Shown here piece by piece: positions 26,150 through 43,203 of a stretch of DNA of 64,000 nucleotides (the stretch's first letter is position 1; the number at the start of each line of letters is the position of its first letter). The notes under the pieces are model-generated. The model was not told the origin of the DNA, did not search any database, and was given only the letters and a program-made list of their open reading frames with translations. Source of the DNA: a virus (Duplodnaviria > Caudoviricetes); IMG/VR virus record IMGVR_UViG_3300037295_000263, positions 152,705 through 216,704 of that record. One strand, 5' to 3'. The position numbers and the translations under genes are program-made.

Positions 26150-27346
26150 ATGAAAATTGCAGTCACCGGTCTCGGTGTAGTATCGTGTCTTGGTAATTCG
26201 GTAGACGAATTATGGGATAATATTTGCCAAGGCAATACTGGCATACTGCCGTTTGAATTTGAGTCTGACGTTATTAAAACTAAAAAAGTTGGAAAGGTGA
26301 AAAATTTTATATTAAATCCAGAGTTCGATGCAAGATGGAAATCTAAAACTGACAAACATATACAATTTGCATTAAATGCTACTAAACAAGCAATTGATCA
26401 AAGTGGATTAAATTTCGAATCCGTTGATCCGGGCAGAGTGCATACTGTAATCGGAACAACTGCAGGCGGCTACGATTTTATTATCAATAACCAAAAAAGA
26501 ATCGATGCAGGAAAACCCTGCTTACCTAATTTTATTCCAGGACATATTAACAATATGATGAGTTCTTATATTAATATGCACTGGGGCATCGAAGGCAGCG
26601 GACTAGGAATCTCTGGAGCATGTGCTGCAGGAAGCCAGGCAATATCTGTTGCTGCCATGTTAATAGAAACTGGTCAAGCGGACGTTGTAGTATGCGGAGC
26701 CAGCGACAGTTGGCTATCCGAACTAACTATTAGCGGATTCGAAAGTTTAGGAGCACTTAGCTTTAATGAAGTTATGCCAAAACCGTTTGATCAATTTCGA
26801 GATGGATTTGCAATTAGTGAAGGGTCTGCCATTATAATTTTAGAAAGTATGGAACATGCGCAGTCCAGAAATGCAAATGTGTTAGCTGTGTTGTCTGGAT
26901 ATGGAATCAGTAACGATGCTTATCATCCTACTAGTCCTAATCCCGAAGGCCGGGCGTTTTTAAGAATGACTGACCAAGCAATGAATAGGGCAGGTATCTC
27001 ACACAACCAAGTTGATTATATAAATGCGCATGCTACTGCTACCAAAGTCGGAGATGCTGTAGAGTGTCAAAACTTATTTAAAATATTTAAAGATAATCCG
27101 TTTATAAGCAGCACTAAAAGTATGACAGGACATAGCATCGGAAGTACTAGTGCTATAGAAGCTGTTATATCTATTCTTTCAGTAAAAAACAATATTATTC
27201 CTGGAACTATTAATTTAACTAATATAGATCCACTCTGCCCAGGAAAACATGTTAAAGAAACTATTAGTCATTCTATAAATCATGCAGCTAGCACTAGCTT
27301 TGGTTTCGGAGGTACCAATGGAATTTTACTTTTTAGTAAAAATTAA
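26150..27346 (+). CDS. fabF: Beta-ketoacyl-ACP synthase II
   Basis: SGACAAG (Cys), DAYHPTSP, INAHATAT (His), KSMTGHSIG (His), SFGFGGTN. Confidence 0.93.
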   Translation: MKIAVTGLGVVSCLGNSVDELWDNICQGNTGILPFEFESDVIKTKKVGKVKNFILNPEFDARWKSKTDKHIQFALNATKQAIDQSGLNFESVDPGRVHTVIGTTAGGYDFIINNQKRIDAGKPCLPNFIPGHINNMMSSYINMHWGIEGSGLGISGACAAGSQAISVAAMLIETGQADVVVCGASDSWLSELTISGFESLGALSFNEVMPKPFDQFRDGFAISEGSAIIILESMEHAQSRNANVLAVLSGYGISNDAYHPTSPNPEGRAFLRMTDQAMNRAGISHNQVDYINAHATATKVGDAVECQNLFKIFKDNPFISSTKSMTGHSIGSTSAIEAVISILSVKNNIIPGTINLTNIDPLCPGKHVKETISHSINHAASTSFGFGGTNGILLFSKN

Positions 27347-30213: not shown

Positions 30214-30335
30214 CTGCACTAACGTTACGACGTCGGCAATATTTCTCGAACTTGATATCCATATTTTTTAATAACGTGGTTAGGTTGTTGTGACGCTTTC
30301 ATTATAATATTATCGTTAGTTAATGTTATGCTGTA

Positions 30336-30364
30336 ATTATACACAAGATACTACACAGTGTCAA
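30336..30364 (-). promoter_or_regulatory. sigma70-type promoter
   Basis: TTGACA-17-TATAAT with extended TG. Confidence 0.8.
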
Positions 30365-30379
30365 CTGTTTAAAAATCGG

Positions 30380-30467
30380 CGGAAGGCTAGAGAGTCGAAC
30401 TCTAAAGGCGCTATTAACACTCGGCTGTTTTCAAGACAGATCCCATCACCAGTTGGGTTGGCCTTCC
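30380..30467 (-). tRNA. tRNA-Ser(TGA)
   Basis: GGAAGGC acceptor, loop CTTGAAA, long variable arm, GTTCGAC T-loop; no encoded CCA. Confidence 0.88.
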
Positions 30468-30474
30468 TTTACTT

Positions 30475-30550
30475 TGGAGTACATGACAGGAATCGAACCT
30501 GCATACACAGGATTTGCAATCCTGTCCCTAGCCTTTCGGGTCACATGTAC
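30475..30550 (-). tRNA. tRNA-Cys(GCA)
   Basis: GTACATG/CATGTAC acceptor, loop TTGCAAA, CCA end. Confidence 0.9.
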
Positions 30551-30557
30551 ATTGTTT

Positions 30558-30633
30558 TGGCATCCCCGGAAGGCCTCGAACCTTCAACCTCTGGTTTTGG
30601 AGACCAGCACTCTGCCAATTGAGCTACGGAGAT
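30558..30633 (-). tRNA. tRNA-Trp(CCA)
   Basis: AGCTCAATTGGCAGAGT D-arm, loop CTCCAAA, CCA end. Confidence 0.92.
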
Positions 30634-30639
30634 ATTGAT

Positions 30640-30700
30640 TGGTACAGCGTACGGAATTCGAACTCTCAAATACACCTTGGCAAGGTGTCAGGCGTGATAA
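30640..30700 (-). pseudogene. Broken tRNA-Gly(GCC)-like remnant
   Basis: Anticodon arm ACACC-TTGCCAA-GGTGT, TTCGAAT and CCA present; T-stem unpaired and 5' acceptor/D-arm missing. Confidence 0.6.
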
Positions 30701-30742
30701 CGATTGTGGGTTTAGTATAGCTGTTCATGATATTTCCTGTAG

Positions 30743-30843
30743 GTTATATTAAAGCACACAGTGTTTTGAGGTATTTAAACTATGCCATTGGGGTTACCAA
30801 ATTCACGAGATTCCCGTCTCGATCCTATGTGCTTTAATATAAC
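30743..30843. repeat. 16-bp inverted-repeat cassette between tRNAs
   Basis: GTTATATTAAAGCACA 30743-30758 / TGTGCTTTAATATAAC 30828-30843. Confidence 0.85.
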
Positions 30844-30884
30844 AATAATTGTACTAGGTTAACGTTGACTTGTCAACTATGTTG

Positions 30885-30960
30885 TGGTATCTCCAACCGG
30901 ATTTGAACCGGTGTGGTTCCCGTGAAAGGGGAAAATCCTAGGCCGCTAGATGATGGAGAT
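30885..30960 (-). tRNA. tRNA-Glu(TTC)
   Basis: ATCTCCA/TGGAGAT acceptor, loop CTTTCAC, GTTCAAATCC, CCA. Confidence 0.9.
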
Positions 30961-31058
30961 AATTGTTGGCTCCAAATATTAGCTTGGAACCTAGTAGACA
31001 TAAATTATGAAAATTAAAACAACTAGTTAATGAGTACGATAAGAAATAATACACTCTG

Positions 31059-31139
31059 CTCCGCCTCGAGGATTCGAACCTCGCCCTTTCGGATCTCCGG
31101 TTAACAGCCGGGTGCCTTCGCCTAGCCAGCCCAAGCGGA
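31059..31139 (-). tRNA. tRNA-Asn(GTT) with an unusually long variable arm
   Basis: TCCGCTT/AGGCGGA acceptor, loop CTGTTAA, variable region GATCCGAAAGGG, no CCA. Confidence 0.8.
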
Positions 31140-31530
31140 GCACAGTATACTGCATCGAAATAAACTTTACTTCTATTAATTATCTTGTTAAACAAGATAA
31201 AACTAATTCTTACGGTTTTACACAAGACAGGATAACCGAAAACTTGTCATATTTCCTTACGGACTTGTTTCTATTTAATTCCATTAATTATGTTGTTTCG
31301 TTATGGAACAGGCCCAACCCCGTTCATTTGCTTTTAACAAACTATGCTTACATACAGGATGATCAATCCAATCTCGTCATAGTTTAACTCGTGTACCTTG
31401 ATAGTCGACATCCAGTACAGTGAGAGTGCATTATGATATACGCCCAATTTTCCAAAACAACATAATTAATGCAATTTATCTTTAGATGAATTAAAAAATA
31501 AAATTAAAATCTGGAATCAAAAGTACATCG

Positions 31531-31603
31531 AGCGGCGTATCGGGCTTGAACCGATGACCTCTAACTTGGAAGGATAGCGTTCTACCAACTGAACTAACGC
31601 CGC
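31531..31603 (-). tRNA. tRNA-Gly(TCC)
   Basis: GCGGCGT/ACGCCGC acceptor, GTTCAGTTGGTAGAAC, loop CTTCCAA; no CCA. Confidence 0.88.
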
Positions 31604-31657
31604 TCGATGTACTCTGTTACCATTAAACTAATCCCGCATATTAATTACTATACACTA

Positions 31658-31686
31658 ATTATAAACTACTTGTTACTGTTTGTCAA
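31658..31686 (-). promoter_or_regulatory. sigma70-type promoter
   Basis: TTGACA-17-TATAAT. Confidence 0.8.
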
Positions 31687-31870
31687 CCTATTTACTACAT
31701 AAAGATTATTTAAAATGGTATCTTGTTCCCGTCCTTCGGGCCAATGTGTTGGGCTTTATTGCTCTCTACCTATTCAGCCATTCCCACCGTCGAGAGTCAG
31801 TGGGAAACATCTTAACACACCATCTGATAAAATACTAGCACTTGTAAACAAGCTCTTATCAGCAGTCAGT

Positions 31871-31959
31871 TACCATAGTAAAACATATTGTGTGCTTGCG
31901 CCCTTACTTCCAGTTCTCTGAGTTGAGTTCTTTACGTCACAATATGTTTTACTATGGTA
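31871..31959. repeat. 22-bp inverted-repeat cassette
   Basis: TACCATAGTAAAACATATTGTG 31871-31892 / CACAATATGTTTTACTATGGTA 31938-31959. Confidence 0.9.
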
Positions 31960-31961
31960 TA

Positions 31962-32057
31962 TAAGTAGTGTGGGATTCGAACCCACGGACATAATAAACA
32001 TGTATCAGCGAATTGACATTGTCAAAAGGCCGTCTTAATCCACTCGACCAACTACTC
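31962..32057 (-). tRNA. Aberrant class-II (Ser/Leu-like body) tRNA-like gene without a canonical anticodon loop
   Basis: GAGTAGT/ACTACTT acceptor, GTCGAGTGGATTAAGAC D-arm, GTGGG-TTCGAAT-CCCAC T-arm; anticodon arm expanded around TTGAC-AAT-GTCAA. Confidence 0.6.
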
Positions 32058-32062
32058 ATGTA

Positions 32063-32138
32063 CCATATTGAAACACACTACTTACGTCTTCGTGTAGAAC
32101 CAAATAACACGATATTTGGCTAATGTGTTCTAATATGG
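32063..32138. repeat. Near-perfect 15-bp inverted-repeat cassette
   Basis: CCATATTGAAACACA / TGTGTTCTAATATGG. Confidence 0.75.
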
Positions 32139-32154
32139 CGTGTACCATATACTA

Positions 32155-32183
32155 ATTATAAACTACTTTTTATATCTTGTCAA
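32155..32183 (-). promoter_or_regulatory. sigma70-type promoter
   Basis: TTGACA-17-TATAAT. Confidence 0.8.
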
Positions 32184-32200
32184 CTATAATTTAATGCATT

Positions 32201-32292
32201 TGGCGGAACGGGTGAGATTCGAACTCACGGTACGTAATAAAACGTACGACAGGTTAGCAACCTGCTGCCTTAGGCCACTCAGCCACCGTTCC
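32201..32292 (-). tRNA. tRNA-Ser(GCT)
   Basis: GGAACGG acceptor, GCTGAGTGGCCTAAGGC, loop TTGCTAA, long variable arm, CCA. Confidence 0.93.
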
Positions 32293-32503
32293 GTAAAATA
32301 TAATTATACTGTATATTTTATACAATGTCAAATTTTATAATTGACACATGCTTATTTCCGTACAAAGCTTTTGCATGTTTGATAGCTTCTTTACGATCTG
32401 CCACATGTACAATTCTACGATCTAATGCTTGTCCCATAGGAGAAATTACGTATTTGTAAAGTTGCTTTGATTCGTTCATAGTGTTTCCTTGTAAAATAGA
32501 ATT

Positions 32504-32532
32504 ATTATAAACTATTTGTTGCCGTTTGTCAA
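32504..32532 (-). promoter_or_regulatory. sigma70-type promoter
   Basis: TTGACA-17-TATAAT. Confidence 0.8.
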
Positions 32533-32537
32533 ATTGT

Positions 32538-32610
32538 TTTTAATATAGCAGTCGCTACTGGGCATTGTAACTCCGCCCATATTACAGTTAGTTGGACTGC
32601 TATATTAAAA
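32538..32610. repeat. 16-bp inverted-repeat cassette
   Basis: TTTTAATATAGCAGTC 32538-32553 / GACTGCTATATTAAAA 32595-32610. Confidence 0.85.
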
Positions 32611-32616
32611 CAAACT

Positions 32617-32692
32617 TGGTGCCGCCACGAGGATTCGAACCCCGGACATCTTCATTACAAGTGAAACACTCTACCAACTGAGCTATGGCGGC
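32617..32692 (-). tRNA. tRNA-Thr(TGT)
   Basis: GCCGCCA acceptor, AGCTCAGTTGGTAGAG, loop CTTGTAA, CCA. Confidence 0.95.
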
Positions 32693-32758
32693 AATACTGT
32701 ACAATTTTTACTACACTGTTATTGTAACACTAAAAACTTTACGTGTCAACTACTTGTT

Positions 32759-32832
32759 TGGTGGAGAATAAGAGAATCGAACTCTTAATTTCGGCATGCA
32801 AAGCCAACGTTATCCCATTTAACTAATTCCCC
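32759..32832 (-). tRNA. tRNA-Ala(TGC)
   Basis: GGGGAAT acceptor with G3:U70, loop TTTGCAT, CCA. Confidence 0.92.
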
Positions 32833-32837
32833 ATAAC

Positions 32838-32917
32838 TGGTCTCTTGTGTAGGATTCCAACCTACGTTATTCTTGGTCCCAAACCAAGTGCCATTGAGCA
32901 GACTAGGCGAACAAGAG
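32838..32917 (-). tRNA. tRNA-Pro(TGG), with non-consensus D- and T-loop bases
   Basis: CTCTTGT/ACAAGAG acceptor, loop TTTGGGA, T-loop TTGGAAT, CCA. Confidence 0.8.
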
Positions 32918-32923
32918 TAAAAC

Positions 32924-32998
32924 TGGCGACTCGTGCCGGAATCGAACCGGCGTAATAGGATAGACAATCCCACGTAATAACCTCTATACGAACGAGCC
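32924..32998 (-). tRNA. tRNA-Asp(GTC)
   Basis: GGCTCGT acceptor, loop TTGTCTA, GTTCGATTCC, CCA. Confidence 0.9.
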
Positions 32999-33007
32999 TT
33001 AAATTGT

Positions 33008-33090
33008 TGGTGGAGTATACTGGAATTGAACCAGTCGTGCCTAAGGCAGCGGAAGGCCTTCCACTGCATCACCATTGATGCTTCTACTCC
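33008..33090 (-). tRNA. tRNA-Tyr-like body with anticodon loop replaced by a 6-nt palindrome (AGGCCT)
   Basis: GGAGTAG/ATACTCC-A-CCA, GCATCAATGGTGATGC D-arm, long variable arm; anticodon arm GTGGA-AGGCCT-TCCGC. Confidence 0.7.
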
Positions 33091-34368: not shown

Positions 34369-35724
34369 TCATAATACTACACTGGAACAATGTTTTTGAA
34401 TTAATTCTTTGACATCTCTTAATGTTGTACGCCAGTTAGTGCCTCGGCGAATGTCGAGGATGTCCATAACTCTAACAAATTCTTGGATTGCTGCTTGATT
34501 TTCAAAATCAATATAAGAATTTAACAAATTGATCTGAGACCGTATCCATCGTTCTCTTGTAGGTGTATTTTCAATCTTTTGCAATCTGTCTATTATTTCT
34601 AATTTTGCAGATTTAGGCAAGTTTCTAATATCGTAACATACTGGACCTTCTATATATCTTATGTTTAAATCTACTTCTAATTCTTCAGATAACGGTAACA
34701 GTCTTTCAAGGGTATAAGGAGTAGCAATGCCGATACAACTTGAAATATAAGTAATTTCTATTCCATTGTTTTTAATTATTTTTAAGTTTTCGATTATTCT
34801 TTCATACTTTCCAGGAAATCGAATTAAGTTATACCTGTCTTCGGTTTCGTCAAGACTTATACACAAAAATACTTTTTTAAAATGTTTCCATCTGTTTATT
34901 ATTTTGTTGTTGATTACACTTAAATTTGTATCGTATCTAAGATATATGTTTTTAGCTGAACCATTTGCTATTAATCTATCCAAACACTCAGCCATTGCCG
35001 GTACGATCAACGGTTCTCCACCAGTAAAATAAATATGTCTCAACTGCGAAGAAATATGTTCAAATTTACTCCACCATACATTAGTTTCCCACCACGGCAC
35101 AGTAACATTGCCAGTATTTGATTTCAAGTAAAAAGATTTGTAATTTTCTTTTTTAAAATTACTAGTCATTATATTATTTCTCATAGGCAATCTTCCTACT
35201 GCCTCCCAATCATCATACCATTGATTACTGTGTTCTGGGCTACACATGATACATTTTTGATTGCATAAATTTCCAAATCTAATATCTAAATTTATAACTT
35301 TTGGATTAGTTATCGATCCGTCGGCGTTCATTACACTTTTAGCAGTGTCTACTGTGATGTATTCAGGTATATTTTTTACAGTTACGTTTAAAACTCGTTG
35401 GCGCTTGCTTATTCCTGTTTTTGCATTTTTGCCCCATGAAATTATTCCCCGAGTACTATCCTCCGAGTCGTAACAACTCCTGCATCGTTTTACTTTAATA
35501 TTTTGTGCAAGTTCTAATCTATGACTTTTATGAGTTTCGCTATTAATAGCTTCTTCAAACGAATGCGTCATGATGTTCATAGTTTTTCCATTACTATCAA
35601 CAGCCATCCCAAAGTCTTTATCAAAATTGGCAAGGCAGCAAATTTTAAAATCTCCACTAGGGCTTATTTCCAACTGACTCCATGGTTCCGGGCAAAAGCT
35701 CTCGATGTTAAAATTTGTTGTCAT
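34369..35724 (-). CDS. Radical SAM protein with N-terminal twitch-like cluster
   Basis: FCPEPW..KICC..CRSCYDSE..SKR; CNQKCIMC, FTGGEP, YDTNL, ISLDE. Confidence 0.92.
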   Translation of the reverse strand: MTTNFNIESFCPEPWSQLEISPSGDFKICCLANFDKDFGMAVDSNGKTMNIMTHSFEEAINSETHKSHRLELAQNIKVKRCRSCYDSEDSTRGIISWGKNAKTGISKRQRVLNVTVKNIPEYITVDTAKSVMNADGSITNPKVINLDIRFGNLCNQKCIMCSPEHSNQWYDDWEAVGRLPMRNNIMTSNFKKENYKSFYLKSNTGNVTVPWWETNVWWSKFEHISSQLRHIYFTGGEPLIVPAMAECLDRLIANGSAKNIYLRYDTNLSVINNKIINRWKHFKKVFLCISLDETEDRYNLIRFPGKYERIIENLKIIKNNGIEITYISSCIGIATPYTLERLLPLSEELEVDLNIRYIEGPVCYDIRNLPKSAKLEIIDRLQKIENTPTRERWIRSQINLLNSYIDFENQAAIQEFVRVMDILDIRRGTNWRTTLRDVKELIQKHCSSVVL

Positions 35725-35735
35725 TTTTAAGTTCC

Positions 35736-36869
35736 TTATCTGTAATAAAAGTTGTAATCTGTATCGATAGCCAATACTTTTTTGTTCAAGTACAGTTTGG
35801 CATTTTTAGGCGTACTAACTTCCTTGTTCTTGTATTTAAAGTAATCTAAGTCATTGTTGAATTCATAAATGTATTTTTTGTAAATATACTTCTGAATGTT
35901 CCCTCGGCTCATTAATTCTTGTCCGAGTAAGCTTACTGCCCAATTTTGAAATTCTTGTCCGTTATACCAAAAAAAACAATTTTGTTCTATAAACTTCTTT
36001 GAATTAATAGTGTCATCGAGCTGTTGGTAATTCCACAACATAGATACAATGTCGATATCGTGCCCCCAATTAAAATTTACCCACCATAAAAATTCATAAA
36101 CAGTGCGTAAATCAATCTTGGCAGACTGAGCAGTTTCAATTATTTCATTGTATGTAAAAACAGCAGAGTTAATATTTGTATTTTCAGTAAAATATTTTAA
36201 AATCTCGTTCACGTGATTTTTCCAAGGACGAGTGTGTATACCCGGATATCGTTCATTAAAGTTTTCAAAGCTGTCAAATGATATTAACGGGCCACCGATT
36301 TCTCCCGAAGTGTATAAGTTGTTGTGAGAGAACTGTATGTTACTATCAAAAAACTCATCTGTAGATATAGTAGCTAATTTTCCTTCTATGTAATTTGTGT
36401 ACATATCAGGATATTCTGCAATGCTATGCTTGTTTAAAACTACTACAATCTTCGAAAGATTTTTAAAATTTCTAAGAACAGAACATAGCACTAACGTGGA
36501 ATCTATTCCGCCACTCCAAAATATATACACTTTATCATAGTCTTCCGCAGAAGCTTGCAACTGTAAAGATCTAAGATCAAACAAGGAAGTACTATCCAAT
36601 GCAGTTTCATGATTTGGAATAAAATGAATGGATGGATTACGCTTTACAGTATGACTTATTCTATCTAGATTAAATCTAGGATATACCAGAGTTTCATTAG
36701 TAGCTATATGTATCATAAATCTTGCACGATCTATGCTATCTATATTTTTTAAAAATTCATATTTATTTTTAGTAGTATAAATTATTCCGTTAACATTAAT
36801 GTAGATTAATTCTTTTTCTTTTAATGGCAGTGATTTAGTTGTTTGCTGTAAATGAATATATGTTGACAT
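35736..36869 (-). CDS. PP-loop (asparagine-synthase/QueC-like) ATPase
   Basis: IFWSGGIDSTLVL; YTSGEIG; C-terminal KYIYKKYIY. Confidence 0.7.
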   Translation of the reverse strand: MSTYIHLQQTTKSLPLKEKELIYINVNGIIYTTKNKYEFLKNIDSIDRARFMIHIATNETLVYPRFNLDRISHTVKRNPSIHFIPNHETALDSTSLFDLRSLQLQASAEDYDKVYIFWSGGIDSTLVLCSVLRNFKNLSKIVVVLNKHSIAEYPDMYTNYIEGKLATISTDEFFDSNIQFSHNNLYTSGEIGGPLISFDSFENFNERYPGIHTRPWKNHVNEILKYFTENTNINSAVFTYNEIIETAQSAKIDLRTVYEFLWWVNFNWGHDIDIVSMLWNYQQLDDTINSKKFIEQNCFFWYNGQEFQNWAVSLLGQELMSRGNIQKYIYKKYIYEFNNDLDYFKYKNKEVSTPKNAKLYLNKKVLAIDTDYNFYYR

Positions 36870-36871
36870 TG

Positions 36872-37510
36872 TTAAAATTCAAATCCGTAGTCTTGAATAT
36901 CGGTTTTATATATTTCAGCAATTATTTTTTTAGTCTCGTCGGTATAGTACAGCTGATGTTCATTTGATTGTGGACTGATCCCACTAGGTAATTCTACCGG
37001 CATGTTGGTACAGAAAAAATTCTGAATCTGCGTAAAGTCGTCGACGAAGTATTCTTTTCTAATAGTAAATGTAGGCTTTTGTAATATGCCGTTGTCATCT
37101 GTATAAGTAATCCATGCAGTTCCGGTGGTCGCCGGAGTGAACCATACTTGCGGAATATGTCGATGATGCGGTAGTTGTTTAATAAAATTTTCAAATGACG
37201 ATAAATCGAAATTAAAAAGAACGTGCATAGGATGCGATGTTCCTTGCGATTCTAACATTGTTAACTTTTTAAATGCATTAAAATTTTTAATCCATGGATT
37301 TGAAATAATTGCAACAGTTTCAACTCCAGGATATACTGATCGAATCATTTTTAAATTCGGAACTTGTTCATCAATTACATTATCGATAATATGCCTATAT
37401 CTAAACTGCGGCACTTTAAAAGACCAATCATAATAGTAATTGGGCCACATAAAATCTCCTGCAGTTAAGGTTATAAAAAAATTGTCGTTTTCTTTATAAT
37501 TGTTAATCAC
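36872..37510 (-). CDS. Sulfotransferase family 2-like protein (degenerate 5'PSB)
   Basis: IISNPW, IRKEYFVDDF, YTDETKKIIAEIYKTDI..YGFEF; C-terminus parallels 63176-63784. Confidence 0.6.
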   Translation of the reverse strand: MINNYKENDNFFITLTAGDFMWPNYYYDWSFKVPQFRYRHIIDNVIDEQVPNLKMIRSVYPGVETVAIISNPWIKNFNAFKKLTMLESQGTSHPMHVLFNFDLSSFENFIKQLPHHRHIPQVWFTPATTGTAWITYTDDNGILQKPTFTIRKEYFVDDFTQIQNFFCTNMPVELPSGISPQSNEHQLYYTDETKKIIAEIYKTDIQDYGFEF

Positions 37511-38693
37511 TCAAATCCTTTATAATATTGTTAAACTGATATTTTGCTCTGTTCTTGTAAAATATATACATTTCAGATTTGGCGAAATTTATATTCTTTT
37601 CGAACCTTGCACGGTTGTTGGACCATAATTCTTTAGTACGTTGATTGTCAGTCAACAACACAATGTTATTCTTAATGGCACTATACATTCGTTCGATCGG
37701 GTCGTCTATTTGATCATACGTGTGGTCAACTATATCATCGAATGTGTCCATGCCCATGTTTCTTAAGAAATCAACAGTGCCTTTACTACTTAATAATATA
37801 GGAAAACTACAGCCGTATATGCTATTTAATGTTTTTTCAGTTAGCAAGAAACATTTTTCAAAATACGAAGTTTCGCTTACTAGTTCAACAAATGTATTTC
37901 GGTAATGAATAGCTAATTTATTTTTAAAATTACTAACATTATCATTTCCTTGCGTTGGGTATATATCTGGACTTTCTGTTAGCAATATCGATGAGTTTTT
38001 AAAATTGTAGTAACCGGTAGCTACTAGATTATATATCAAATTTTGTTCTGAAGAAAATAACTGTTTACCTTCCAATACTTCAGCTTCATGAAACTCGTCT
38101 TTAAACATTGCCGAAACTAGCCCGTGCTCTGCTGTCTTTAATCCGTGTTGTAGAAATACAGACAATGCTCGGTGTAACCTCATTCCTCTATTTAGACTAA
38201 GATAAGTCGATGTACTGTCCAGATTTTTTTCCAGAACAGGAGACATTGCCTTGTACTCTAGTTCTTGGTTAGTAATATCCCCTCCCCACGGAACTATAAA
38301 CAGGTTATCTCGTTTTATACATTGTTCTAGATTTTCCAGCGATGTTAATATTATAAATTTTTTATCAGGATATAAATCAAACAGCATACTTAAATTATCA
38401 ATAGAAGAATTCACACACTGTTTTTCAAAGTTATATTTCCCGTATGTTAAATGATCCTTGATCCCTATAATAATCAAATCTTGTTTAATATTATCTAAAA
38501 TTGAATTTCGAAAATCTAATTCAAATTTGTTAATGTTTTCATTTGTTAAATGTACTATTTCTGAATATGTTGGTTCGAATATAATAGACCAAATATAAAA
38601 ACTATCATTCGCGATAGGCACATTGTTGGTCAACTCATAAAATAATCGAAATGCAAAAGCATCGCCGGGCGGTCTTTTTATTATTGTTTTCAT
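37503..38693 (-). CDS. Putative glycosyltransferase-like protein (paralogue of 15669-16865)
   Basis: YLSLNRG.RLHR; VELVSET..LLTEKT..PILL..GMDTFDDIVDHTYD. Confidence 0.5.
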   Translation of the reverse strand: MKTIIKRPPGDAFAFRLFYELTNNVPIANDSFYIWSIIFEPTYSEIVHLTNENINKFELDFRNSILDNIKQDLIIIGIKDHLTYGKYNFEKQCVNSSIDNLSMLFDLYPDKKFIILTSLENLEQCIKRDNLFIVPWGGDITNQELEYKAMSPVLEKNLDSTSTYLSLNRGMRLHRALSVFLQHGLKTAEHGLVSAMFKDEFHEAEVLEGKQLFSSEQNLIYNLVATGYYNFKNSSILLTESPDIYPTQGNDNVSNFKNKLAIHYRNTFVELVSETSYFEKCFLLTEKTLNSIYGCSFPILLSSKGTVDFLRNMGMDTFDDIVDHTYDQIDDPIERMYSAIKNNIVLLTDNQRTKELWSNNRARFEKNINFAKSEMYIFYKNRAKYQFNNIIKDLSD

Positions 38694-39580
38694 TTAGATA
38701 ATATCGACTTCATCTTACCATATTCGTTTTGTAAAAAATTCGAATCAACTGATACAGGAGTTTGGATTCCTACTTGCGATGTCAATTCATCTCTTAAATC
38801 ATTATTGTTAAGACGTTTAGACAATTCAGTTAATACAGCAGGATCCGATGAAGAGTTAGCCACTACAGAATGCCATCTGTAATATTCTTTATCATCAACT
38901 CCTAATTCGCCAAGAGTTGGTATATTCGGATATTCAGAAAGTCGATGGTTGGACAATACAGCAATAGGGATTAAGTCTCCTGATGAAATAAACCCGGACA
39001 ATGTTGCATTGGATTCCAATAGCCATTGAACATCGTTGGCAAGTAAGCCCAAAATAGCAGCACTACCTCCTTGGTATGGCACATGTATCAAATTTTTATT
39101 GTTATTGGCAATTATATTTGCAGATATATGACTATTAGTTCCTATTCCTGCTGAGCCGTAAAATAGAGTTTTTTCTTTGAAAGTTTTTTGAAATTCTTGA
39201 AAAGATTTAATTCCACTTGATTTGTTAACTACTAAAATAGTAGGTTCTATTCCTACATAATCTATTAGCACAAAGTCTTTTTCTATTTGGTATTTAACTG
39301 ATGAAGGATTTAGTATAGGCGCAGTCACTACTGCTCCGCCTGACAACATCACCATATTAGAAGTTTTATCACTGGCCAAATAGTTAGCAGCAACTATTCC
39401 TCCTGCTCCTGTTTTGTATTCTAATATAATTTTAAAATCGGGAGTAGATATATGTTTTGCTATAATTCTAGAAATTTTATCAGCACTGCCACCAGGTGAA
39501 TACGGTACTAGCCATCTTATTTCTGTTGAATAAGCATTTAGTGACAAGAAAGTTGTTAATATTAAAATAATTGTTTTCAT
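38690..39580 (-). CDS. tctC: Tripartite tricarboxylate transporter substrate-binding protein (Bug/TctC)
   Basis: Signal peptide; VPYSPGGSAD, GAGGIVA, GSAGIGT..H, VPYQGG. Confidence 0.88.
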   Translation of the reverse strand: MKTIILILTTFLSLNAYSTEIRWLVPYSPGGSADKISRIIAKHISTPDFKIILEYKTGAGGIVAANYLASDKTSNMVMLSGGAVVTAPILNPSSVKYQIEKDFVLIDYVGIEPTILVVNKSSGIKSFQEFQKTFKEKTLFYGSAGIGTNSHISANIIANNNKNLIHVPYQGGSAAILGLLANDVQWLLESNATLSGFISSGDLIPIAVLSNHRLSEYPNIPTLGELGVDDKEYYRWHSVVANSSSDPAVLTELSKRLNNNDLRDELTSQVGIQTPVSVDSNFLQNEYGKMKSILSK

Positions 39581-40704
39581 AATTTGTAAAATTTTGTATT
39601 TGTTGAACTGAGGCCATTTTTTATATCTTGCTGAATTCCTGAATCTTTTGAAATATTTTCTTCTAGATATTTTATAACATCTAAGTAATTATGTTTAACT
39701 TCATCCGATGCTGTATTCCAAAACCATAGGTCTTGATCTCTGATTATTTTACTATCGGGTTTTTCTGTTTGAAATACAGGTTCGGGCAAACCAGGATATA
39801 TTATAGGGTGCATAACTTTTCTAAATTCTCCTATATGAACATTGAGAGAAGTAGACCATAAATGTTTTTTATTTGGGTCTATCTCGCATTGCGCTTTAAT
39901 TTCTTGTGCTTGTTTAATAACAATCTCGGGCATTTCAGGAGTCCAATAAAAGAACTCGGTTATATAGTGCTTATGATAAATTTCTTCTTTGTTTAATGTA
40001 ACCGGAGCAGCATGCATTGCCGACGAGTCTGTGAAGTAAGCGTAATAGTTGACTCCGTCAAAATATACCAGCGGCTTATCCACACCTAGTAATTGACAAC
40101 AACGTTTTCCATTATCGATTAATTTTAGTATGTGATTTTCGTATAACGAAGTTGCTTGTCTTCCTATCACTCCTAAACATATATTTGTTCCTGGGGTGTT
40201 AGTTTCAAACCAATTGTCGTGCCTTAATAACTCAATTAGGCTTTTAGAAAAATCCTGGAATCTTAATTTAGTATTAGGGTGTATTTTATGTTTAATACTA
40301 TTTAAATATGGAACAGCAACGAAGTCTATTTCTCCGTAAATATTGCGATTGCTCATATCGGTATTATTAAAATTCTTTCTATCAGGTTCGGGCAACTGCA
40401 TTACTATTTCGTCTATAAACAATCCATTATCTAAAAAAGATAACAGTATGTTATTGCTGTCTGCTCCGCCGGTGTAGTATAGTGCGATATAATCATATTG
40501 CTCTCTAAGTTGTTTAGCACGAGCAGCATATAATTGAGGCAGAGATTTGGCAATAGGAACAGACCAGTCAACTGCACTATATACATCATCGTTAAATACC
40601 CACTTAACTGCGTATTTTGTCTTTTTTGATTCTATCAAAGCAAGTGTTTTATTTACAAACTTGTTAAAACCTACAAGGTAGTATCCCAATCTGTTAGAGT
40701 GCAT
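39577..40704 (-). CDS. PP-loop ATPase family protein (paralogue of 57942-59054)
   Basis: LYYTGGADSNNIL..F; GVDKP; EFFYWTPEMPEIVIKQA. Confidence 0.7.
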   Translation of the reverse strand: MHSNRLGYYLVGFNKFVNKTLALIESKKTKYAVKWVFNDDVYSAVDWSVPIAKSLPQLYAARAKQLREQYDYIALYYTGGADSNNILLSFLDNGLFIDEIVMQLPEPDRKNFNNTDMSNRNIYGEIDFVAVPYLNSIKHKIHPNTKLRFQDFSKSLIELLRHDNWFETNTPGTNICLGVIGRQATSLYENHILKLIDNGKRCCQLLGVDKPLVYFDGVNYYAYFTDSSAMHAAPVTLNKEEIYHKHYITEFFYWTPEMPEIVIKQAQEIKAQCEIDPNKKHLWSTSLNVHIGEFRKVMHPIIYPGLPEPVFQTEKPDSKIIRDQDLWFWNTASDEVKHNYLDVIKYLEENISKDSGIQQDIKNGLSSTNTKFYKL

Positions 40705-41275
40705 ACAACTCTTCTACTCGTTTTTTTATATTGTTAAAATTTAATGGCATAGTAGTAGGGACATTATTTACAGCAGATTCTATATAACCTAATTCCTCGT
40801 ATGTATATGTTGAATTAAAATTTATAGAAAGTGAATCTAAAAGTAAGTTATTATTATTGATTGTGTTTATGCACTCAGTCAGGACTACGTCGTCGATGTC
40901 TATTTCATACTGTTTTATATTTTCGGCAGGCCGTTGAAACCACACGTTTCTTTTTTTGGCAATATAGTAACTAACTATTTGATCGATTATATCTAATCTT
41001 GTGAGTTTTATCTTAAAACAGTCACTAAGCAATAGCTCTCTGTACTCTTTTAAATCAGTAATTTGATTAACAATAATCTTAATGGCATACTTTTTATTAT
41101 TGCTATAATATTGATTTAAAAATAAAGACGGATCGTGTAATCCCGATGTTGGTTCAATAAATGCCAATTCACCTAGTTTAAATTGTTCCCTTATAGCATT
41201 TATAAAAGGAGATGATGCTGTCCTGTAATTAGCAACTACAATTACTGGCCATTGGCATATTTCAATTTTTGTCAA
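40694..41275 (-). CDS. Stf0-like sulfotransferase
   Basis: VVANYRTASS P-loop-like, EP, LTRLDIIDQIVSYYIA...W, YEEL. Confidence 0.6.
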   Translation of the reverse strand: MTKIEICQWPVIVVANYRTASSPFINAIREQFKLGELAFIEPTSGLHDPSLFLNQYYSNNKKYAIKIIVNQITDLKEYRELLLSDCFKIKLTRLDIIDQIVSYYIAKKRNVWFQRPAENIKQYEIDIDDVVLTECINTINNNNLLLDSLSINFNSTYTYEELGYIESAVNNVPTTMPLNFNNIKKRVEELYAL

Positions 41276-42078
41276 ACTAACCCCATGTCCTTTCGAATTT
41301 GAGTTCCAGATATCTGTGTAATAGATTCGTCAAAAGTTTCTTCTCCTGCTGTATATCCTACTCCGCGTCCCCATCCGATATGAACAATATTAGGAACAAT
41401 TTGTATATGGTATTGGCCCTGATAAAGAGGATCTAGATCTCTGCGAATACGATTTTTAACCTCTTCTAATCCAAACGGATTGCTACCTTGCCAACCTTGC
41501 ACATCACGGATTTGTATAATTACTTGACCAGTGCGTGTCAACAATCGTTCAAACAAAGCACGATGTCCTCGATGCCACGGCTGCCATCGTCCTAATTGTT
41601 GCACTGTTTCTTTACGCCAATCGAATACCGGTCTTCGTTTATTTGCTAATATATGCTCTGCAATAAAACTTGTCCACTTTTCAGCATCTTGTTCATTAAC
41701 ACGAAAATCGTATACTGTTGGTGCAATAAAAGCCTTGTTAGTATCTGCAAAGCGACTTTGATCGATAGTGTCTAACCAAATAGTCCAGTCAGCATTAAAA
41801 TTATTACGCATTTCTGGTAATGGTGCAACAAAGTCACATAGGACATAATCTGCTGTAGATTTCTCTGCTAATTCTTTCATTCTTAAACTTTGGCGTATTC
41901 TTCCATCCTCACTAAAATCCCAGTCATTGTAATGTTTTCTAACAACATCAGCATTGAACCATTCTGCAGTAACTAACCTGCTACCTTGAAACTGTGTCGA
42001 AATATAATGTTGTAGTACTGTTGCTAGCGTAGTTTTTCCGGAACCTGGCAAGCCCATAATTAAAATTTTTATTGACAT
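41272..42078 (-). CDS. cysC: Adenylyl-sulfate kinase fused to a cytidylyltransferase-like domain
   Basis: MGLPGSGKTT, NADVVR, R..Q..R, DFVAP; C-terminal GRWQPWHRGH (HxGH). Confidence 0.8.
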   Translation of the reverse strand: MSIKILIMGLPGSGKTTLATVLQHYISTQFQGSRLVTAEWFNADVVRKHYNDWDFSEDGRIRQSLRMKELAEKSTADYVLCDFVAPLPEMRNNFNADWTIWLDTIDQSRFADTNKAFIAPTVYDFRVNEQDAEKWTSFIAEHILANKRRPVFDWRKETVQQLGRWQPWHRGHRALFERLLTRTGQVIIQIRDVQGWQGSNPFGLEEVKNRIRRDLDPLYQGQYHIQIVPNIVHIGWGRGVGYTAGEETFDESITQISGTQIRKDMGLV

Positions 42079-42120
42079 TCTATTACCTATCTGTTTGTGT
42101 TAATTATCTACGAAGCTTGA

Positions 42121-43203
42121 TTAGTATTTAAAATGTGGCACAATTTCTTTAAACGTCTGTGTCCAATCTAATTTTCTAATTGGATCCCATTTGTTTATAT
42201 GAGATAACATATCTTTATAATCCAGTACTGGTATTTCTTTCATAACTTTACTAATAGGATGAGAATCGTCCAGCTTTTTCCAAATCTCTTCACGTAAACT
42301 CATTGGAGTACACCCTATGTCTAATGTACCTTCGCCCCGAATAAAATTATAACTAACTCGAGATCCGTCTGGATTAGTACTAAAATTCTCATCAAGCCAG
42401 TTTCCTAAAATATCTACGTAATAAACATTTAATGGAATAATACAGCAGTTGATGTGAAAACTAGTATTCCGTGTGGTGTTATTTTTAAATAACTCCAGAT
42501 TTCTAGTAGCTTTATCCCACTTTAACGGCCATCGTATGTAATGGAATTGGTCTCCTACTCCGTCGATGCTAAGTCCTATCTTTACTTGTTTAAACTTTTC
42601 CCATAATTTCAATACAGAGTCGTTGGGAAAGATACTGCAATTAGTAGTATAGTTAATTTGCACATCTGCTGGATTTTCTATTTCGTATAAAAACTTTAAA
42701 TGAGTATCAGTTAGTAACGGCTCGCCGCCCCAGAAATGGAAAATTTTTACTTTGTTTAAATCGATGCTCTCTTTTAAAGTTTTTATTTTACGGTCAATTT
42801 CAGGTTCGGGCTGTATATGGATTATTTTTTTATCCTGTGCTAGCTCTTTCCTCCAAAGTGAACTCTGCGAGTCTCCGCATTGAATACATGCAGCATTACA
42901 GGTAGTATCTAAAACTATTTCTAATTTGTAAATAGAATCTCCTGCATCGTCTGGAATTTCATTATTACTAACCATACGCAAACTATTGCCATGTGTTTTT
43001 TCTTTTAGTTCGCATTTGCTGCATCCTGGCAAGAAAGTTTTTGCATTTATAAAGCGATCACGTTCTCTTTTGAAAAACGTAGGATGAAAAGGCAAATAGT
43101 CGTTGTAAAGACAACACGGGTTGAATGTTAATGCGTCACTGTCTCCGGGTACTCTGAAACTAACAGCATTACTCAACGCTTTACAGAAAGTATTTTGCTT
43201 CAT
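42121..43203 (-). CDS. Radical SAM protein with N-terminal twitch-like cluster
   Basis: FCKAL..PCC..CSKCELKE..SLR; CNAACIQC, FWGGEP, YTTNCS, LSIDG. Confidence 0.9.
   Translation of the reverse strand: MKQNTFCKALSNAVSFRVPGDSDALTFNPCCLYNDYLPFHPTFFKRERDRFINAKTFLPGCSKCELKEKTHGNSLRMVSNNEIPDDAGDSIYKLEIVLDTTCNAACIQCGDSQSSLWRKELAQDKKIIHIQPEPEIDRKIKTLKESIDLNKVKIFHFWGGEPLLTDTHLKFLYEIENPADVQINYTTNCSIFPNDSVLKLWEKFKQVKIGLSIDGVGDQFHYIRWPLKWDKATRNLELFKNNTTRNTSFHINCCIIPLNVYYVDILGNWLDENFSTNPDGSRVSYNFIRGEGTLDIGCTPMSLREEIWKKLDDSHPISKVMKEIPVLDYKDMLSHINKWDPIRKLDWTQTFKEIVPHFKY

What the first reader, a model, noticed from the sequence alone, without database searches (positions are those of the whole stretch)
30743..32610. 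Series of long-stem hairpin cassettes with variable loops interleaved with tRNA genes
Seen: inverted repeats of 16 bp (30743/30828), 22 bp (31871/31938), about 15 bp (32063/32124) and 16 bp (32538/32595) enclose unrelated 40-70-nt inserts. Three stems share a similar arm (ATATTAAAGCACA, ATAGTAAAACATA, ATATTGAAACACA). Each occupies a tRNA-sized slot in the same minus-strand transcript. Inference: a repeated processing scaffold that releases small variable RNAs, i.e. an uncharacterised small-RNA array hidden in a tRNA cluster.
Basis: partly seen in the sequence, partly recalled or inferred. Interest (0 to 1): 0.75.

Follow-up and report, generated by a model that had tools for sequence, protein, structure and literature searches.

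The report
Conserved hairpin RNAs in phage tRNA-array
Three of the four long hairpins between the tRNA genes of this large T4-like phage belong to a widespread, so far undescribed family of tRNA-sized RNA hairpins with a fixed 19-base-pair stem and a changeable top, found only in the tRNA gene arrays of uncultured aquatic phages; what they do is not yet known.

Summary
The four inverted repeats are real and far beyond chance: every perfect inverted repeat of 16 bp or more with a 20-110-nt loop in the 216.7-kb record lies in this 2-kb stretch. Hairpins B (31872-31958), C (32062-32139) and, more distantly, A (30743-30843) match a covariance model built only from other viral contigs (49, 51 and 28 bits). 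D (32530-32618) does not; it forms a stem-loop-plus-promoter unit behind tRNA-Thr.

The family has at least 230 distinct copies in about 120 viral contigs. It is absent from Rfam 15, from 50,697 GenBank phage records and from true bacterial genomes. Its 19-bp helix (ACCAUAUAAAAACACAUU / AGUGUGUUUCUAUAUGGU) usually carries an A.C mismatch at position 9. Covariation and a 10:1 excess of G.U on the tRNA-sense strand indicate selection on the RNA. It usually starts on the ACCA tail of a tRNA (80% of tRNA-Lys(UUU)) and often ends inside the next tRNA. The 30-60-nt top differs between lineages.

Best reading: a constant handle carrying variable cargo, cut out by tRNA-processing enzymes. No RNA data exist, so release and function are inferred.

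This scan already noted the same family on other DNA (e1-5337218).

The parts
30743..30843 (-). Hairpin A: a diverged family member. The 19-bp stem (GUUAUAUUAAAGCACAUAG...) keeps the family's U17.G wobble. Cargo is 63 nt. It lies directly behind promoter 30876-30848.
   Evidence: R1 with filters off scores 27.6 bits on the minus strand (E 3e-6) against 22.1 on the plus strand. Arm relatives occur in other loci. Promoter.
31872..31958 (-). Hairpin B: a family member with a perfect 21-22-bp stem (ACCAUAGUAAAACAUAUUGUG...) and 45-nt cargo. It follows the tRNA-like RNA 31962-32057 by 3 nt.
   Evidence: R1 scores 49.1 bits, E 1e-10. Five stem positions differ from the family consensus, and all five are paired in B (sequence).
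32062..32139 (-). Hairpin C: a family member with the A.C mismatch at position 9 and G.U pairs that exist only on the minus strand. Cargo is 40 nt and contains an 8-bp inner hairpin. It lies behind promoter 32183-32155 and 4 nt ahead of the tRNA-like RNA.
   Evidence: R1 scores 51.1 bits on the minus strand against 36.9 on the plus strand. Folds. Promoter.
32530..32618 (-). Hairpin D: not a family member. A 16-24-bp stem with a 41-nt loop that can form a pseudoknot (UGUAA/UUACA interleaved with GGGC/GCCC). It starts on the CA of the tRNA-Thr CCA end, and its 3' arm runs into the -35 box of promoter 32532-32504.
   Evidence: No R1 match even with filters off. No arm or loop relatives in 1.19 Mb of related loci. 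A strain-level recombination joint lies at 32537/32538.
31962..32057 (-). Non-canonical class-II tRNA-like RNA flanked by C and B. The 3' arm of C and the 5' arm of B can alternatively pair across it (25 nt, 84%).
   Evidence: Rfam tRNA model 38 bits. Repeat I3. The minimum-free-energy fold keeps three separate domains.
31522..31613 (-). tRNA-Gly(UCC) enclosed in a perfect 17-bp leader-trailer stem (acceptor stem plus 10 bp).
31646..31687 (-). Copy of the 42-nt promoter repeat (TTGACA-17-TATAAT). Further copies lie at 32143-32184, 32492-32533 and 30324-30365. The repeats bound an 850-bp cassette (31687-32537) that holds B, C, the tRNA-like RNA, tRNA-Ser and a 53-aa ORF.
   Evidence: Direct-repeat family D1. 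Promoters. Contigs of three other runs join 31686/7 to 32537/8.

Best explanation
A, B and C are copies of a phage-specific family of tRNA-sized (about 85 nt) non-coding RNAs. They are made on the tRNA-sense (minus) strand of the tRNA array of a T4-like jumbo phage.

Each copy has two parts. One is a constant handle: a 19-bp AU-rich helix of conserved sequence, usually with an A.C mismatch at position 9 and a U.G pair at position 17. The other is a lineage-specific cargo of 30-60 nt, up to about 85 nt, which in some copies is a tRNA-like multi-branch fold.

In most family members the handle begins on the ACCA tail of the upstream tRNA and ends at or inside the 5' end of the next tRNA. The enzymes that mature the neighbouring tRNAs would therefore cut the hairpin out as a stable small RNA. 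On the 3' side this would be RNase P. On the 5' side it would be an RNase Z/BN-like or RNase III-like cut followed by trimming.

In this window the arrangement is a variant. A and C form the 5' ends of short promoter-driven transcripts that continue into non-canonical tRNA-like RNAs, and B closes one of them.

Shown: family membership, RNA-level selection on the helix, restriction to viral tRNA arrays, boundary coincidence with tRNA ends, and a constrained cargo size.
Inferred: release of the hairpin, its stability, and the idea that the handle is a recognition or stability element for a conserved factor while the cargo is the working part.
For: In 596 Gb of prokaryote genomes it hit only 17 places. 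Five of those are true copies, all in tRNA-array contigs of MAGs; the other 12 are chance hits.

Stem conservation: stem positions not fixed by the search pattern are conserved and 96-100% paired, and positions 8 and 19 covary. On alignment A1, 94.5% of cells pair, 8 pairs change on both sides, and 0 of 500 shuffles reach that.

Membership: model R1, built without the window, scores C at 51.1, B at 49.1 and A at 27.6 bits.

Strand: excluding position 9, there are 298 G.U pairs on the tRNA-sense strand against 29 A.C. In all, 177 elements favour the sense strand and 3 the antisense. C scores 51 bits on the minus strand and 37 on the plus.

Boundaries: 126 of about 225 copies start at -4, sharing ACCA with the upstream tRNA, and 49 end 3 nt inside the next tRNA. 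An example was read base by base.

Cargo: it is unimodal at 30-60 nt, with one empty hairpin in 1.2 Mb. Its GC content is 49% against 35% for the genome. Eleven of 231 cargoes carry a T-arm, on the sense strand only. One cargo class shows conserved hairpins with compensatory changes.

Distribution within genomes: copies are confined to one region in two complete 365-kb genomes and in G000.

Transcription: promoters lie directly upstream of A and C.
Against: - No RNA data exist for this or any related phage, so no discrete RNA has been seen.
- The cargoes of A and B fold no better than shuffles (z +1.1 and +1.0), and across the family the folding signal of the cargo is weak (mean z -0.45).
- The cargoes of A-D have no relatives in 1.19 Mb of related loci, which also fits weak constraint.
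- No partner protein was found. The array-adjacent ORFs are not conserved, and complete genomes carry neither RNase III nor Ro60.
- The sense-strand G.U excess is partly built into how copies were collected, and transcription-linked C-to-T bias could inflate it.
- Most tRNAs in these arrays are separated by 1-10 nt with no hairpin, so the element is not needed for tRNA maturation in general.
Confidence: 0.45

Rival explanations
1. Pure processing, insulating or stabilising hairpins. The 19-bp helix is a double-strand nuclease site (host RNase III type) or an end-protecting clamp that separates and stabilises neighbouring stable RNAs. The loop is filler with no function of its own.
For: Only the stem is conserved between distant phages, and cargoes are mostly unrelated: 83 clusters from 116 loops. 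The element always sits between stable-RNA genes, including behind GOLLD. A and C lie at predicted transcript 5' ends, where a terminal hairpin protects RNA (the protective effect is established knowledge for E. coli). The helix length of about 19-22 bp suits RNase III (own knowledge). An earlier agent of this scan reached the same reading on other DNA (e1-5337218).
Against: Filler should shrink and drift toward the genome's AT content. Instead the loops hold at 30-60 nt with 49% GC, and almost no short-loop copies exist. Some cargoes are conserved folds. The stem is conserved in sequence far beyond what RNase III needs. Most tRNA junctions do without the hairpin.
Confidence: 0.3
2. Trans-acting antisense or decoy RNAs. 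The loop is displayed single-stranded to pair with host or rival-phage RNAs, or to soak up a tRNA-directed defence nuclease.
For: The cargoes of A and B are open and purine-rich. Cargo diversity looks like an arms race. The hairpins follow Lys(UUU), Glu(UUC) and Gln(UUG), the tRNAs that anticodon nucleases attack (the nuclease targets are own knowledge).
Against: No complementarity beyond chance was found within the phage genome. No anticodon-loop mimicry was found in the cargoes. Among close strains the loops change no faster than the flanks. The host is unknown, so host targets could not be tested.
Confidence: 0.1
3. DNA-level elements. The palindromes act as recombination or cruciform sites that shuffle tRNA-array modules, in the manner of PeSL cassettes.
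For: Related strains differ by an 850-bp cassette holding B and C. Copy number and order of the hairpins vary between related arrays. These are T4-like phages, the group in which PeSL shuffling is described (PMC2839356, PMC4122927).
Against: The strain-level joints lie at the 42-nt promoter repeats, not at the hairpin arms. G.U pairs are tolerated and A.C pairs avoided on one strand only. Copies within one genome have diverged through compensatory changes rather than being homogenised (B against C against A).
Confidence: 0.07
4. Decayed tRNA genes. The arms are former leader-trailer stems, like the one around tRNA-Gly, and the loops are tRNA remnants.
For: tRNA-Gly and the tRNA-like RNA are themselves enclosed by long leader-trailer pairing. 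Five per cent of cargoes keep a T-arm. tRNA fragments occur in this array.
Against: Most cargoes are 30-60 nt with no tRNA features. The arm sequence is conserved across hundreds of copies in which no tRNA is enclosed. Rfam's tRNA model does not score them.
Confidence: 0.05

Closest known systems
Phage T4 stable RNAs species 1 and 2 (rnaC, rnaD) in the T4 tRNA cluster
   Same: Both are small stable RNAs of unknown function, encoded on the tRNA strand directly behind a tRNA in a T4-type phage; in T4, rnaD starts 1 nt after tRNA-Arg. rnaC carries a perfect T-arm, as do some cargoes here. G000 has a T4-type gp23.
   Different: No sequence or model similarity: R1 finds nothing in the T4 region. 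The T4 RNAs are 119-139 nt, have no long conserved closing helix, and are single genes rather than a multi-copy scaffold with swappable inserts.
RNase III processing hairpins of T7/T3 early transcripts and the leader-trailer stems of rRNA operons
   Same: Both are roughly 20-bp helices with a conserved imperfection, placed between units of a polycistronic stable transcript. They could be cut to release the flanking RNAs (own knowledge).
   Different: The stem sequence here is conserved across very distant phages, the loop is large and constrained in size, the helix takes in the tRNA's CCA tail, and no RNase III cut has been mapped. The phages carry no RNase III gene.
tRNA-linked small RNAs released by tRNA-processing enzymes
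   Same: A hairpin or small RNA abuts a tRNA, so that RNase Z or RNase P cuts define its ends. Examples, from own knowledge: the tRNA-pre-miRNA units (TMERs) of murine gammaherpesvirus 68, plant tRNA-snoRNA genes, 3'ETS-leuZ of E. coli, and engineered tRNA-gRNA arrays.
   Different: Those are not a sequence-conserved scaffold with variable tops. No Dicer-like pathway exists in bacteria. Release is not shown here.
PeSL promoter/stem-loop cassettes of T4-like phages (PMC2839356, PMC4122927)
   Same: Near-consensus sigma-70 promoters are repeated through a plastic region. A stem-loop sits directly upstream of a promoter (hairpin D plus promoter 32532-32504). A strain-level indel is bounded by the repeats.
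   Different: PeSL stem-loops are short terminator-like hairpins flanking ORFs (PMC4122927). The A/B/C family has 19-bp conserved stems with 30-60-nt loops, lies between RNA genes, carries no promoter inside it, and is selected as RNA.
Bacterial Y RNAs / YrlA (PMC4201824)
   Same: Modular design: a long stem formed by the two ends, plus a variable module that is often tRNA-like with a T-arm. YrlA RNAs also occur in phages.
   Different: There is no GGUCCGA-like Ro-binding motif, no Rfam YrlA or Y_RNA match, and no Ro60/TROVE gene in G000 or in two complete relatives.
GOLLD and other large ornate RNAs next to phage tRNAs (Rfam RF02032)
   Same: Both are structured RNAs of unknown function in the same tRNA arrays. 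The hairpin follows GOLLD by 3 nt in L065 and L093.
   Different: Size and fold are unrelated, and the window itself has no GOLLD match.

Membership tests
   C scores 51.1 bits and B 49.1 bits. A scores 27.6 bits, E 3e-6, with filters off. For D the feature is not met: no match at E up to 10.
   All copies lie on the minus strand within array 30381-33090. B's ACCA lies 3 nt behind the tRNA-like RNA. A and C follow promoters rather than tRNAs, a minority arrangement in the family: 85 of about 225 copies have no tRNA within 10 nt upstream.
   C has A9.C and U17.G. A has U17.G. B has both positions converted to Watson-Crick pairs, as do 41+46 and 70 of 231 family copies respectively.
Any Rfam 15 family | Score at or above the gathering threshold, or any E up to 5 | tested here: not met
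   No match over A-D in the window, and none over family members in other loci at E up to 1.
PeSL cassettes of T4-like phages | Composite of a short stem-loop and a sigma-70-type early promoter, repeated, bounding indels between related strains | tested here: inconclusive
   Promoter repeats bound an 850-bp indel, and D plus promoter 32532-32504 has the composite layout. A, B and C themselves are not the recombining sequence, and they are much longer than described PeSL stem-loops (PMC4122927).
Y RNA / YrlA | Ro60 (TROVE) gene in the genome and a GGUCCGA-like Ro-binding motif in the stem | tested here: not met
   No TROVE match in G000, G004, G005, G006 or G001. The stem consensus lacks the motif. 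There is no Rfam match.
RNase III processing site | Cleavage by RNase III within a helix of about 20 bp | not testable with these tools
   The helix length fits. No RNase III gene is present in the phages, so a host enzyme would be needed. No cleavage data exist.
tRNA or tRNA pseudogene | Cloverleaf with D, anticodon and T arms | tested here: not met
   ARAGORN and the Rfam tRNA model do not call A-D. Only 11 of 231 family cargoes contain a T-arm.
T4 rnaC/rnaD | Sequence or structure homology to the T4 stable RNAs | tested here: not met
   R1 finds nothing in T4 69.5-74.5 kb. The folds differ.

The most novel reading that the evidence does not exclude
The family is a natural RNA display scaffold of T4-like jumbo phages. 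A sequence-specific 19-bp handle captures the CCA tail of tRNA-Lys(UUU), tRNA-Glu(UUC) or tRNA-Gln(UUG) and is released by tRNA-processing enzymes. It presents fast-evolving cargo RNAs, including tRNA mimics, that bind or distract host factors such as tRNA-directed defence nucleases: anticodon nucleases acting on these three tRNAs, or CCA-tail cutters such as Cas12a3 (PMC12851939). That would make it a new class of RNA-based counter-defence built into tRNA arrays.
Probability: 0.15. Interest if true: 0.85.

Novelty: new variant of a known kind. Interest (0 to 1): 0.62.

Why it matters
Phage tRNA arrays are usually read only as codon supply or as spare parts against tRNA-cutting defences. This family shows that the arrays of a large group of uncultured T4-like jumbo phages also carry a second, unannotated class of genes: several tRNA-sized hairpin RNAs per genome, each with one conserved handle and many different tops.

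If the RNAs are released as inferred, there are three consequences:
- They offer a natural counterpart of the tRNA-flanked expression cassettes used in synthetic biology.
- They provide a possible handle for finding the protein or nuclease that reads the helix.
- They supply a set of lineage-specific small RNAs whose targets may bear on phage-host conflict.

The tie to Lys(UUU), Glu(UUC) and Gln(UUG) tRNAs gives a concrete hypothesis to test.

The work also gives annotators a covariance model for a motif that gene callers and Rfam currently leave blank.

Tried and rejected
- RNA evidence: the look-up of sequencing runs listed no RNA holder, so expression could not be examined.
- Syntenic relatives through flanking proteins: the 149-aa and 211-aa neighbours gave nothing. 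Radical-SAM relatives L004-L006 have no tRNAs nearby, but the full record of L004 led to a related array.
- Isolate phages: no family copy in 50,697 GenBank phage records.
- Antisense targets: the cargoes of A-D match nothing in G000 beyond 12-15 nt, which is chance level.
- Cargo homologues: none for A-D in 1.19 Mb of related loci.
- Anticodon-loop mimicry in cargoes: not enriched.
- Conserved partner proteins next to the arrays: tblastn of seven window ORFs against all loci found none.
- Phage-encoded RNase III and Ro60: absent.
- Homology to T4 rnaC/rnaD: none.
- Integron attC, CRISPR repeat, retron ncRNA and type III antitoxin repeats were considered and set aside from the anatomy: inverted rather than direct repeats, and no integrase, cas or RT gene seen nearby. 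None of these was searched formally.
- A pseudoknot between the A-rich 5' part and the second hairpin loop of cargo class 1 looked possible by eye, but it conflicted with the helix register and was not pursued.
- Literature: four full-text searches found no description of the family.
Full report
SETTING. The window is the last 64 kb of a 216.7-kb IMG/VR virus record (G000), which CheckV rates 59% complete. G000 carries a T4-type major capsid gene, as do two complete relatives of 364 and 367 kb. It is therefore a T4-like jumbo phage. DNA runs holding it are labelled salt-lake, aquatic and ice metagenomes.

On the minus strand, window 30381-33090 is a tRNA array. ARAGORN tRNAs. Rfam adds 30381-30467 and the odd class-II tRNA-like 31962-32057, plus a weak match at 33012-33090. 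Eight consensus or near-consensus sigma-70-type promoters (TTGACA-17-TATAAT) lie on the same strand within 3.4 kb.

OBSERVATION. The four inverted repeats exist as described. As minus-strand RNA they fold into long hairpins with z-scores of -4.4 to -6.7. In the whole 216.7-kb record, only four perfect inverted repeats of 16 bp or more enclose 20-110 nt, and all four lie in these 2 kb. One of them is a 17-bp leader-trailer stem around tRNA-Gly. This is not chance.

WHAT THEY ARE. A related record, G001, was reached through a radical-SAM neighbour. Its tRNA array holds two hairpins with nearly the same arms (ACCAUAUAUAAAC..., ACCAUAUAGAAAC...), each starting on the ACCA of a tRNA.

I then scanned IMG/VR with the two-arm pattern ACCATAKNNRAAC-N40-70-GTTYNNMTATGGT. 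The same pattern over 596 Gb of prokaryote genomes returned 17 places. Only five of those are true copies, all on MAG contigs packed with 9-21 tRNAs. The other 12 have no tRNAs and poor pairing, and they give the chance rate. No copy was found in 50,697 GenBank phage records, and no Rfam 15 family matches. Four literature searches found no description.

The consensus is ACCAUAUAAAAACACAUU-cargo-AGUGUGUUUCUAUAUGGU. Positions outside the search pattern (14-18) are conserved and 96-100% paired, and positions 8 and 19 covary through all four Watson-Crick pairs. On the 70-sequence alignment A1, 94.5% of cells pair, eight pairs show changes on both sides, and no shuffle of 500 reaches this. Sliding the partner strand drops pairing to 30-60%.

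Model R1 was built from A1, which contains no sequence from this window. It scores hairpin C at 51.1 bits and B at 49.1 bits. With filters off, A scores 27.6 bits (E 3e-6), and D does not score at all. Arms of the A type (xxAUAUURAAGCAC) recur in other loci; arms of the D type do not. So three of the four cassettes belong to one family and D is a look-alike.

In G000 and in two complete genomes, the copies (2-4 per genome) are confined to the tRNA region.

RNA OR DNA, AND WHICH STRAND. Leaving out position 9, the 231 distinct copies carry 298 G.U pairs on the tRNA-sense strand against 29 A.C pairs, which would be G.U on the other strand. In all, 177 copies favour the sense strand and 3 the antisense.

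In the window, C scores 14 bits better on the minus strand. The one DNA mismatch in the stem of A is a U.G pair on the minus strand at the family's usual position 17. B differs from the consensus at five stem positions, and all five are paired in B.

Copies within this genome have therefore diverged while keeping their helices. That argues for selection on an RNA helix and against homogenised DNA repeats. One caveat: my relaxed collection counted G.U as paired on the sense strand, and U17.G is part of the consensus used. Without position 17 the ratio is still about 5:1.

PLACE IN THE ARRAY. A relaxed scan found 247 copies in 122 loci, 1-6 per locus. Of about 225 copies with an upstream neighbour, 126 start at -4, so their first four bases are the tRNA's ACCA. 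Forty-nine end 3 nt inside the next tRNA, mostly tRNA-Met, whose first bases are GGU. Others end 0-10 nt before the next tRNA. Tandem runs also occur, with hairpins 1-3 nt apart. The Lys-hairpin-Met junction was read base by base in L053.

The choice of upstream tRNA is not explained by the ACCA end alone:
- 74 of 92 Lys(UUU), 19 of 95 Glu(UUC), 8 of 65 Leu(UAG) and 7 of 76 Gln(UUG) tRNAs are followed by a hairpin. Only 11 of the Gln(UUG) tRNAs end in ACCA.
- Pro, Phe, Ile, Ala, Val, Thr(UGU), Met and Lys(CUU) tRNAs, nearly all of which also end in ACCA, almost never are.
Shared ancestry of the Lys-hairpin-Met block inflates these counts, so the association is a lead and not a statistic.

The hairpin also follows GOLLD RNA by 3 nt in two loci, and hairpin-like arms lie inside a permuted tmRNA match.

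CARGO. The cargo measures 30-60 nt in most copies and up to about 100 nt in a few. Only one hairpin in 1.2 Mb has a short (4-nt) loop. GC content is 49% against about 35% for the phage.

Sequence is very diverse: 116 loops fall into 83 clusters. The folding signal is weak overall (mean z -0.45 on the sense strand, -0.31 on the antisense). There is a modest sense-strand excess of 5-bp hairpins with 3- and 7-nt loops.

Eleven cargoes carry a canonical T-arm, on the sense strand only. The larger ones are multi-branch, tRNA-like folds closed by the family helix.

One cargo class was followed up with its own scan. All seven AT-context matches sit inside the scaffold behind a tRNA. The eight variants share a hairpin with a palindromic loop (GCCCGGG or GGCCGGC) and a second hairpin with loop UUUACGA, with compensatory changes.

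The window's own cargoes have no relatives in the other loci and no complementarity elsewhere in the phage beyond chance. A and B fold no better than shuffles, while C has an 8-bp inner hairpin.

THE WINDOW'S ARRANGEMENT. Promoter 32183-32155 is followed by C, then the non-canonical tRNA-like RNA (31962-32057), then B. These fold as three separate domains, although the 3' arm of C can also pair with the 5' arm of B across the tRNA-like RNA.

Promoter 30876-30848 would start transcription within the first bases of A. A is followed by a degenerate tRNA-like stretch (30640-30735) and then by tRNA-Trp and tRNA-Cys.

D starts on the CCA of tRNA-Thr and runs into the -35 box of promoter 32532-32504. 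That stem-loop-plus-promoter layout resembles the PeSL cassettes of T4-like phages (PMC4122927).

Contigs from three other metagenome runs join 31686/7 directly to 32537/8. They therefore lack 850 bp that hold tRNA-Ser, a 53-aa ORF, C, the tRNA-like RNA, B and a further structured stretch. Another joint links 32144 to 31645. These joints fall at the edges of a 42-nt promoter repeat. Module gain and loss thus runs through the promoters, not through the hairpin arms. Across the same strains, the loop of hairpin A changes no faster than its flanks.

MECHANISM. Four things are shown:
- a conserved RNA helix on the tRNA strand;
- ends that coincide with tRNA maturation sites;
- a cargo that is kept at a set size;
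- restriction to viral tRNA arrays.

My inference is that the hairpins are cut out of the precursors by the enzymes that mature the neighbouring tRNAs. RNase P would act on the 3' side, and an RNase Z/BN-type or RNase III-type cut with trimming on the 5' side. The product would persist as a tRNa-sized RNA in which the helix serves as handle and the cargo as the working part (confidence 0.45).

The near-absence of empty hairpins and the conserved folds of some cargoes favour this over a pure processing or insulator role (0.30). That rival remains strong, because only the stem is conserved over long distances and many cargoes look unstructured.

Antisense or decoy action (0.10), DNA-level recombination sites (0.07) and decayed tRNAs (0.05) are less likely, for the reasons listed under the rival explanations.

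No partner protein was found. The phages lack RNase III and Ro60, and the array-adjacent ORFs are not conserved.

COMPARISON WITH WHAT IS KNOWN. By context, the nearest thing is the pair of T4 stable RNAs, species 1 and 2, which sit right behind tRNA-Arg. T4 rnaC even has a T-arm. There is no homology, however, and the T4 RNAs are not a repeated scaffold.

RNase III sites of T7, tRNA-linked small RNAs cut out by RNase Z or RNase P, Y RNAs/YrlA and PeSL cassettes each share one feature and fail on others (see the membership table).

I file the family as a new variant of a known kind: structured small RNAs embedded in phage tRNA clusters.

The same family was noted earlier by this scan on another genome (e1-5337218). 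I reached it independently and tested its main claims here. I add the following:
- the strand test;
- the cargo-size constraint;
- the tRNA-like and conserved cargo classes;
- the tRNA preference;
- the viral restriction, with an empirical chance rate;
- the strain-level cassette in this window.

Noticed in passing
window 31687-32537: An 850-bp accessory cassette (tRNA-Ser, a 53-aa ORF, hairpin C, a tRNA-like RNA, hairpin B and a structured stretch) is missing in contigs of three other metagenome runs. The joints lie at the edges of a 42-nt promoter repeat (31646-31687, 32143-32184, 32492-32533). This is PeSL-like module shuffling.
   Followed up: partly
window 31522-31640: tRNA-Gly is enclosed in a perfect 17-bp leader-trailer stem. 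It is preceded by what looks like the 5' half of another tRNA (GCGGGAUUAGUUUAAUGGUAACAGAG, about 31606-31632 on the minus strand), which matches the 5' parts of tRNAs in many related loci.
   Followed up: partly
window 30640-30735: A degenerate tRNA-like stretch lies directly behind hairpin A. It has a T-arm-like GGAAUUCGAAC and ends in ...GUACCAA. Neither ARAGORN nor Rfam calls it, even at E up to 5.
   Followed up: no
window 33008-33090: The tRNA-Tyr-like gene with an odd anticodon arm has homologues of 80-85% identity over its full length in at least six other viral loci (L070, L082, L018, L128, L039, L073). It is therefore conserved and not a local accident.
   Followed up: partly
L065 2633-3191 and L093 1768-2326: A GOLLD RNA (RF02032, about 200 bits) with an internal tRNA-Asn is followed 3 nt later by a family hairpin. 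The same spacing (tRNA-Asn, about 330 nt, then a hairpin) recurs in L020, L027 and L049.
   Followed up: partly
L065 812-1112: A permuted (two-piece) tmRNA match overlaps a hairpin whose arms resemble the family (867-974). That hairpin starts on UCCACCA and holds a T-arm. The family helix may therefore also close the excised segment of a permuted tmRNA precursor.
   Followed up: no
L137 (sense coordinates 1076-1195) and L065 71-189: A 120-nt element has four inner hairpins, including a T-arm, closed by the family helix. It is conserved between the two contigs with compensatory changes and is not matched by any Rfam family.
   Followed up: no
family-wide (loci L018-L137): The hairpins follow Lys(UUU) (80%), Glu(UUC) (20%) and Gln(UUG), the three tRNAs that carry xm5s2U34 and are classic anticodon-nuclease targets. 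They almost never follow other tRNAs that end in ACCA.
   Followed up: partly
L159, L161, L164, L048, L157, L167, L073, L019 (alignment A2): One cargo class has a hairpin whose 7-nt loop stays palindromic while its sequence changes (GCCCGGG against GGCCGGC). This hints at loop-loop dimerisation.
   Followed up: partly
L155 (T4 70908-71046): T4 species 1 RNA (rnaC) ends in a perfect tRNA T-arm (CCGGGUUCGAAUCCCGG) and folds with z = -4.6. Species 2 (rnaD) shows no such signal (z = -0.8).
   Followed up: no
window 34369-43203: There are two radical SAM genes, one of them with a SPASM domain (34369-35724). The window also holds a ketoacyl synthase (26150-27346) and a TctA transporter gene (59953-61311), which are unusual auxiliary genes for a phage.
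   Followed up: no
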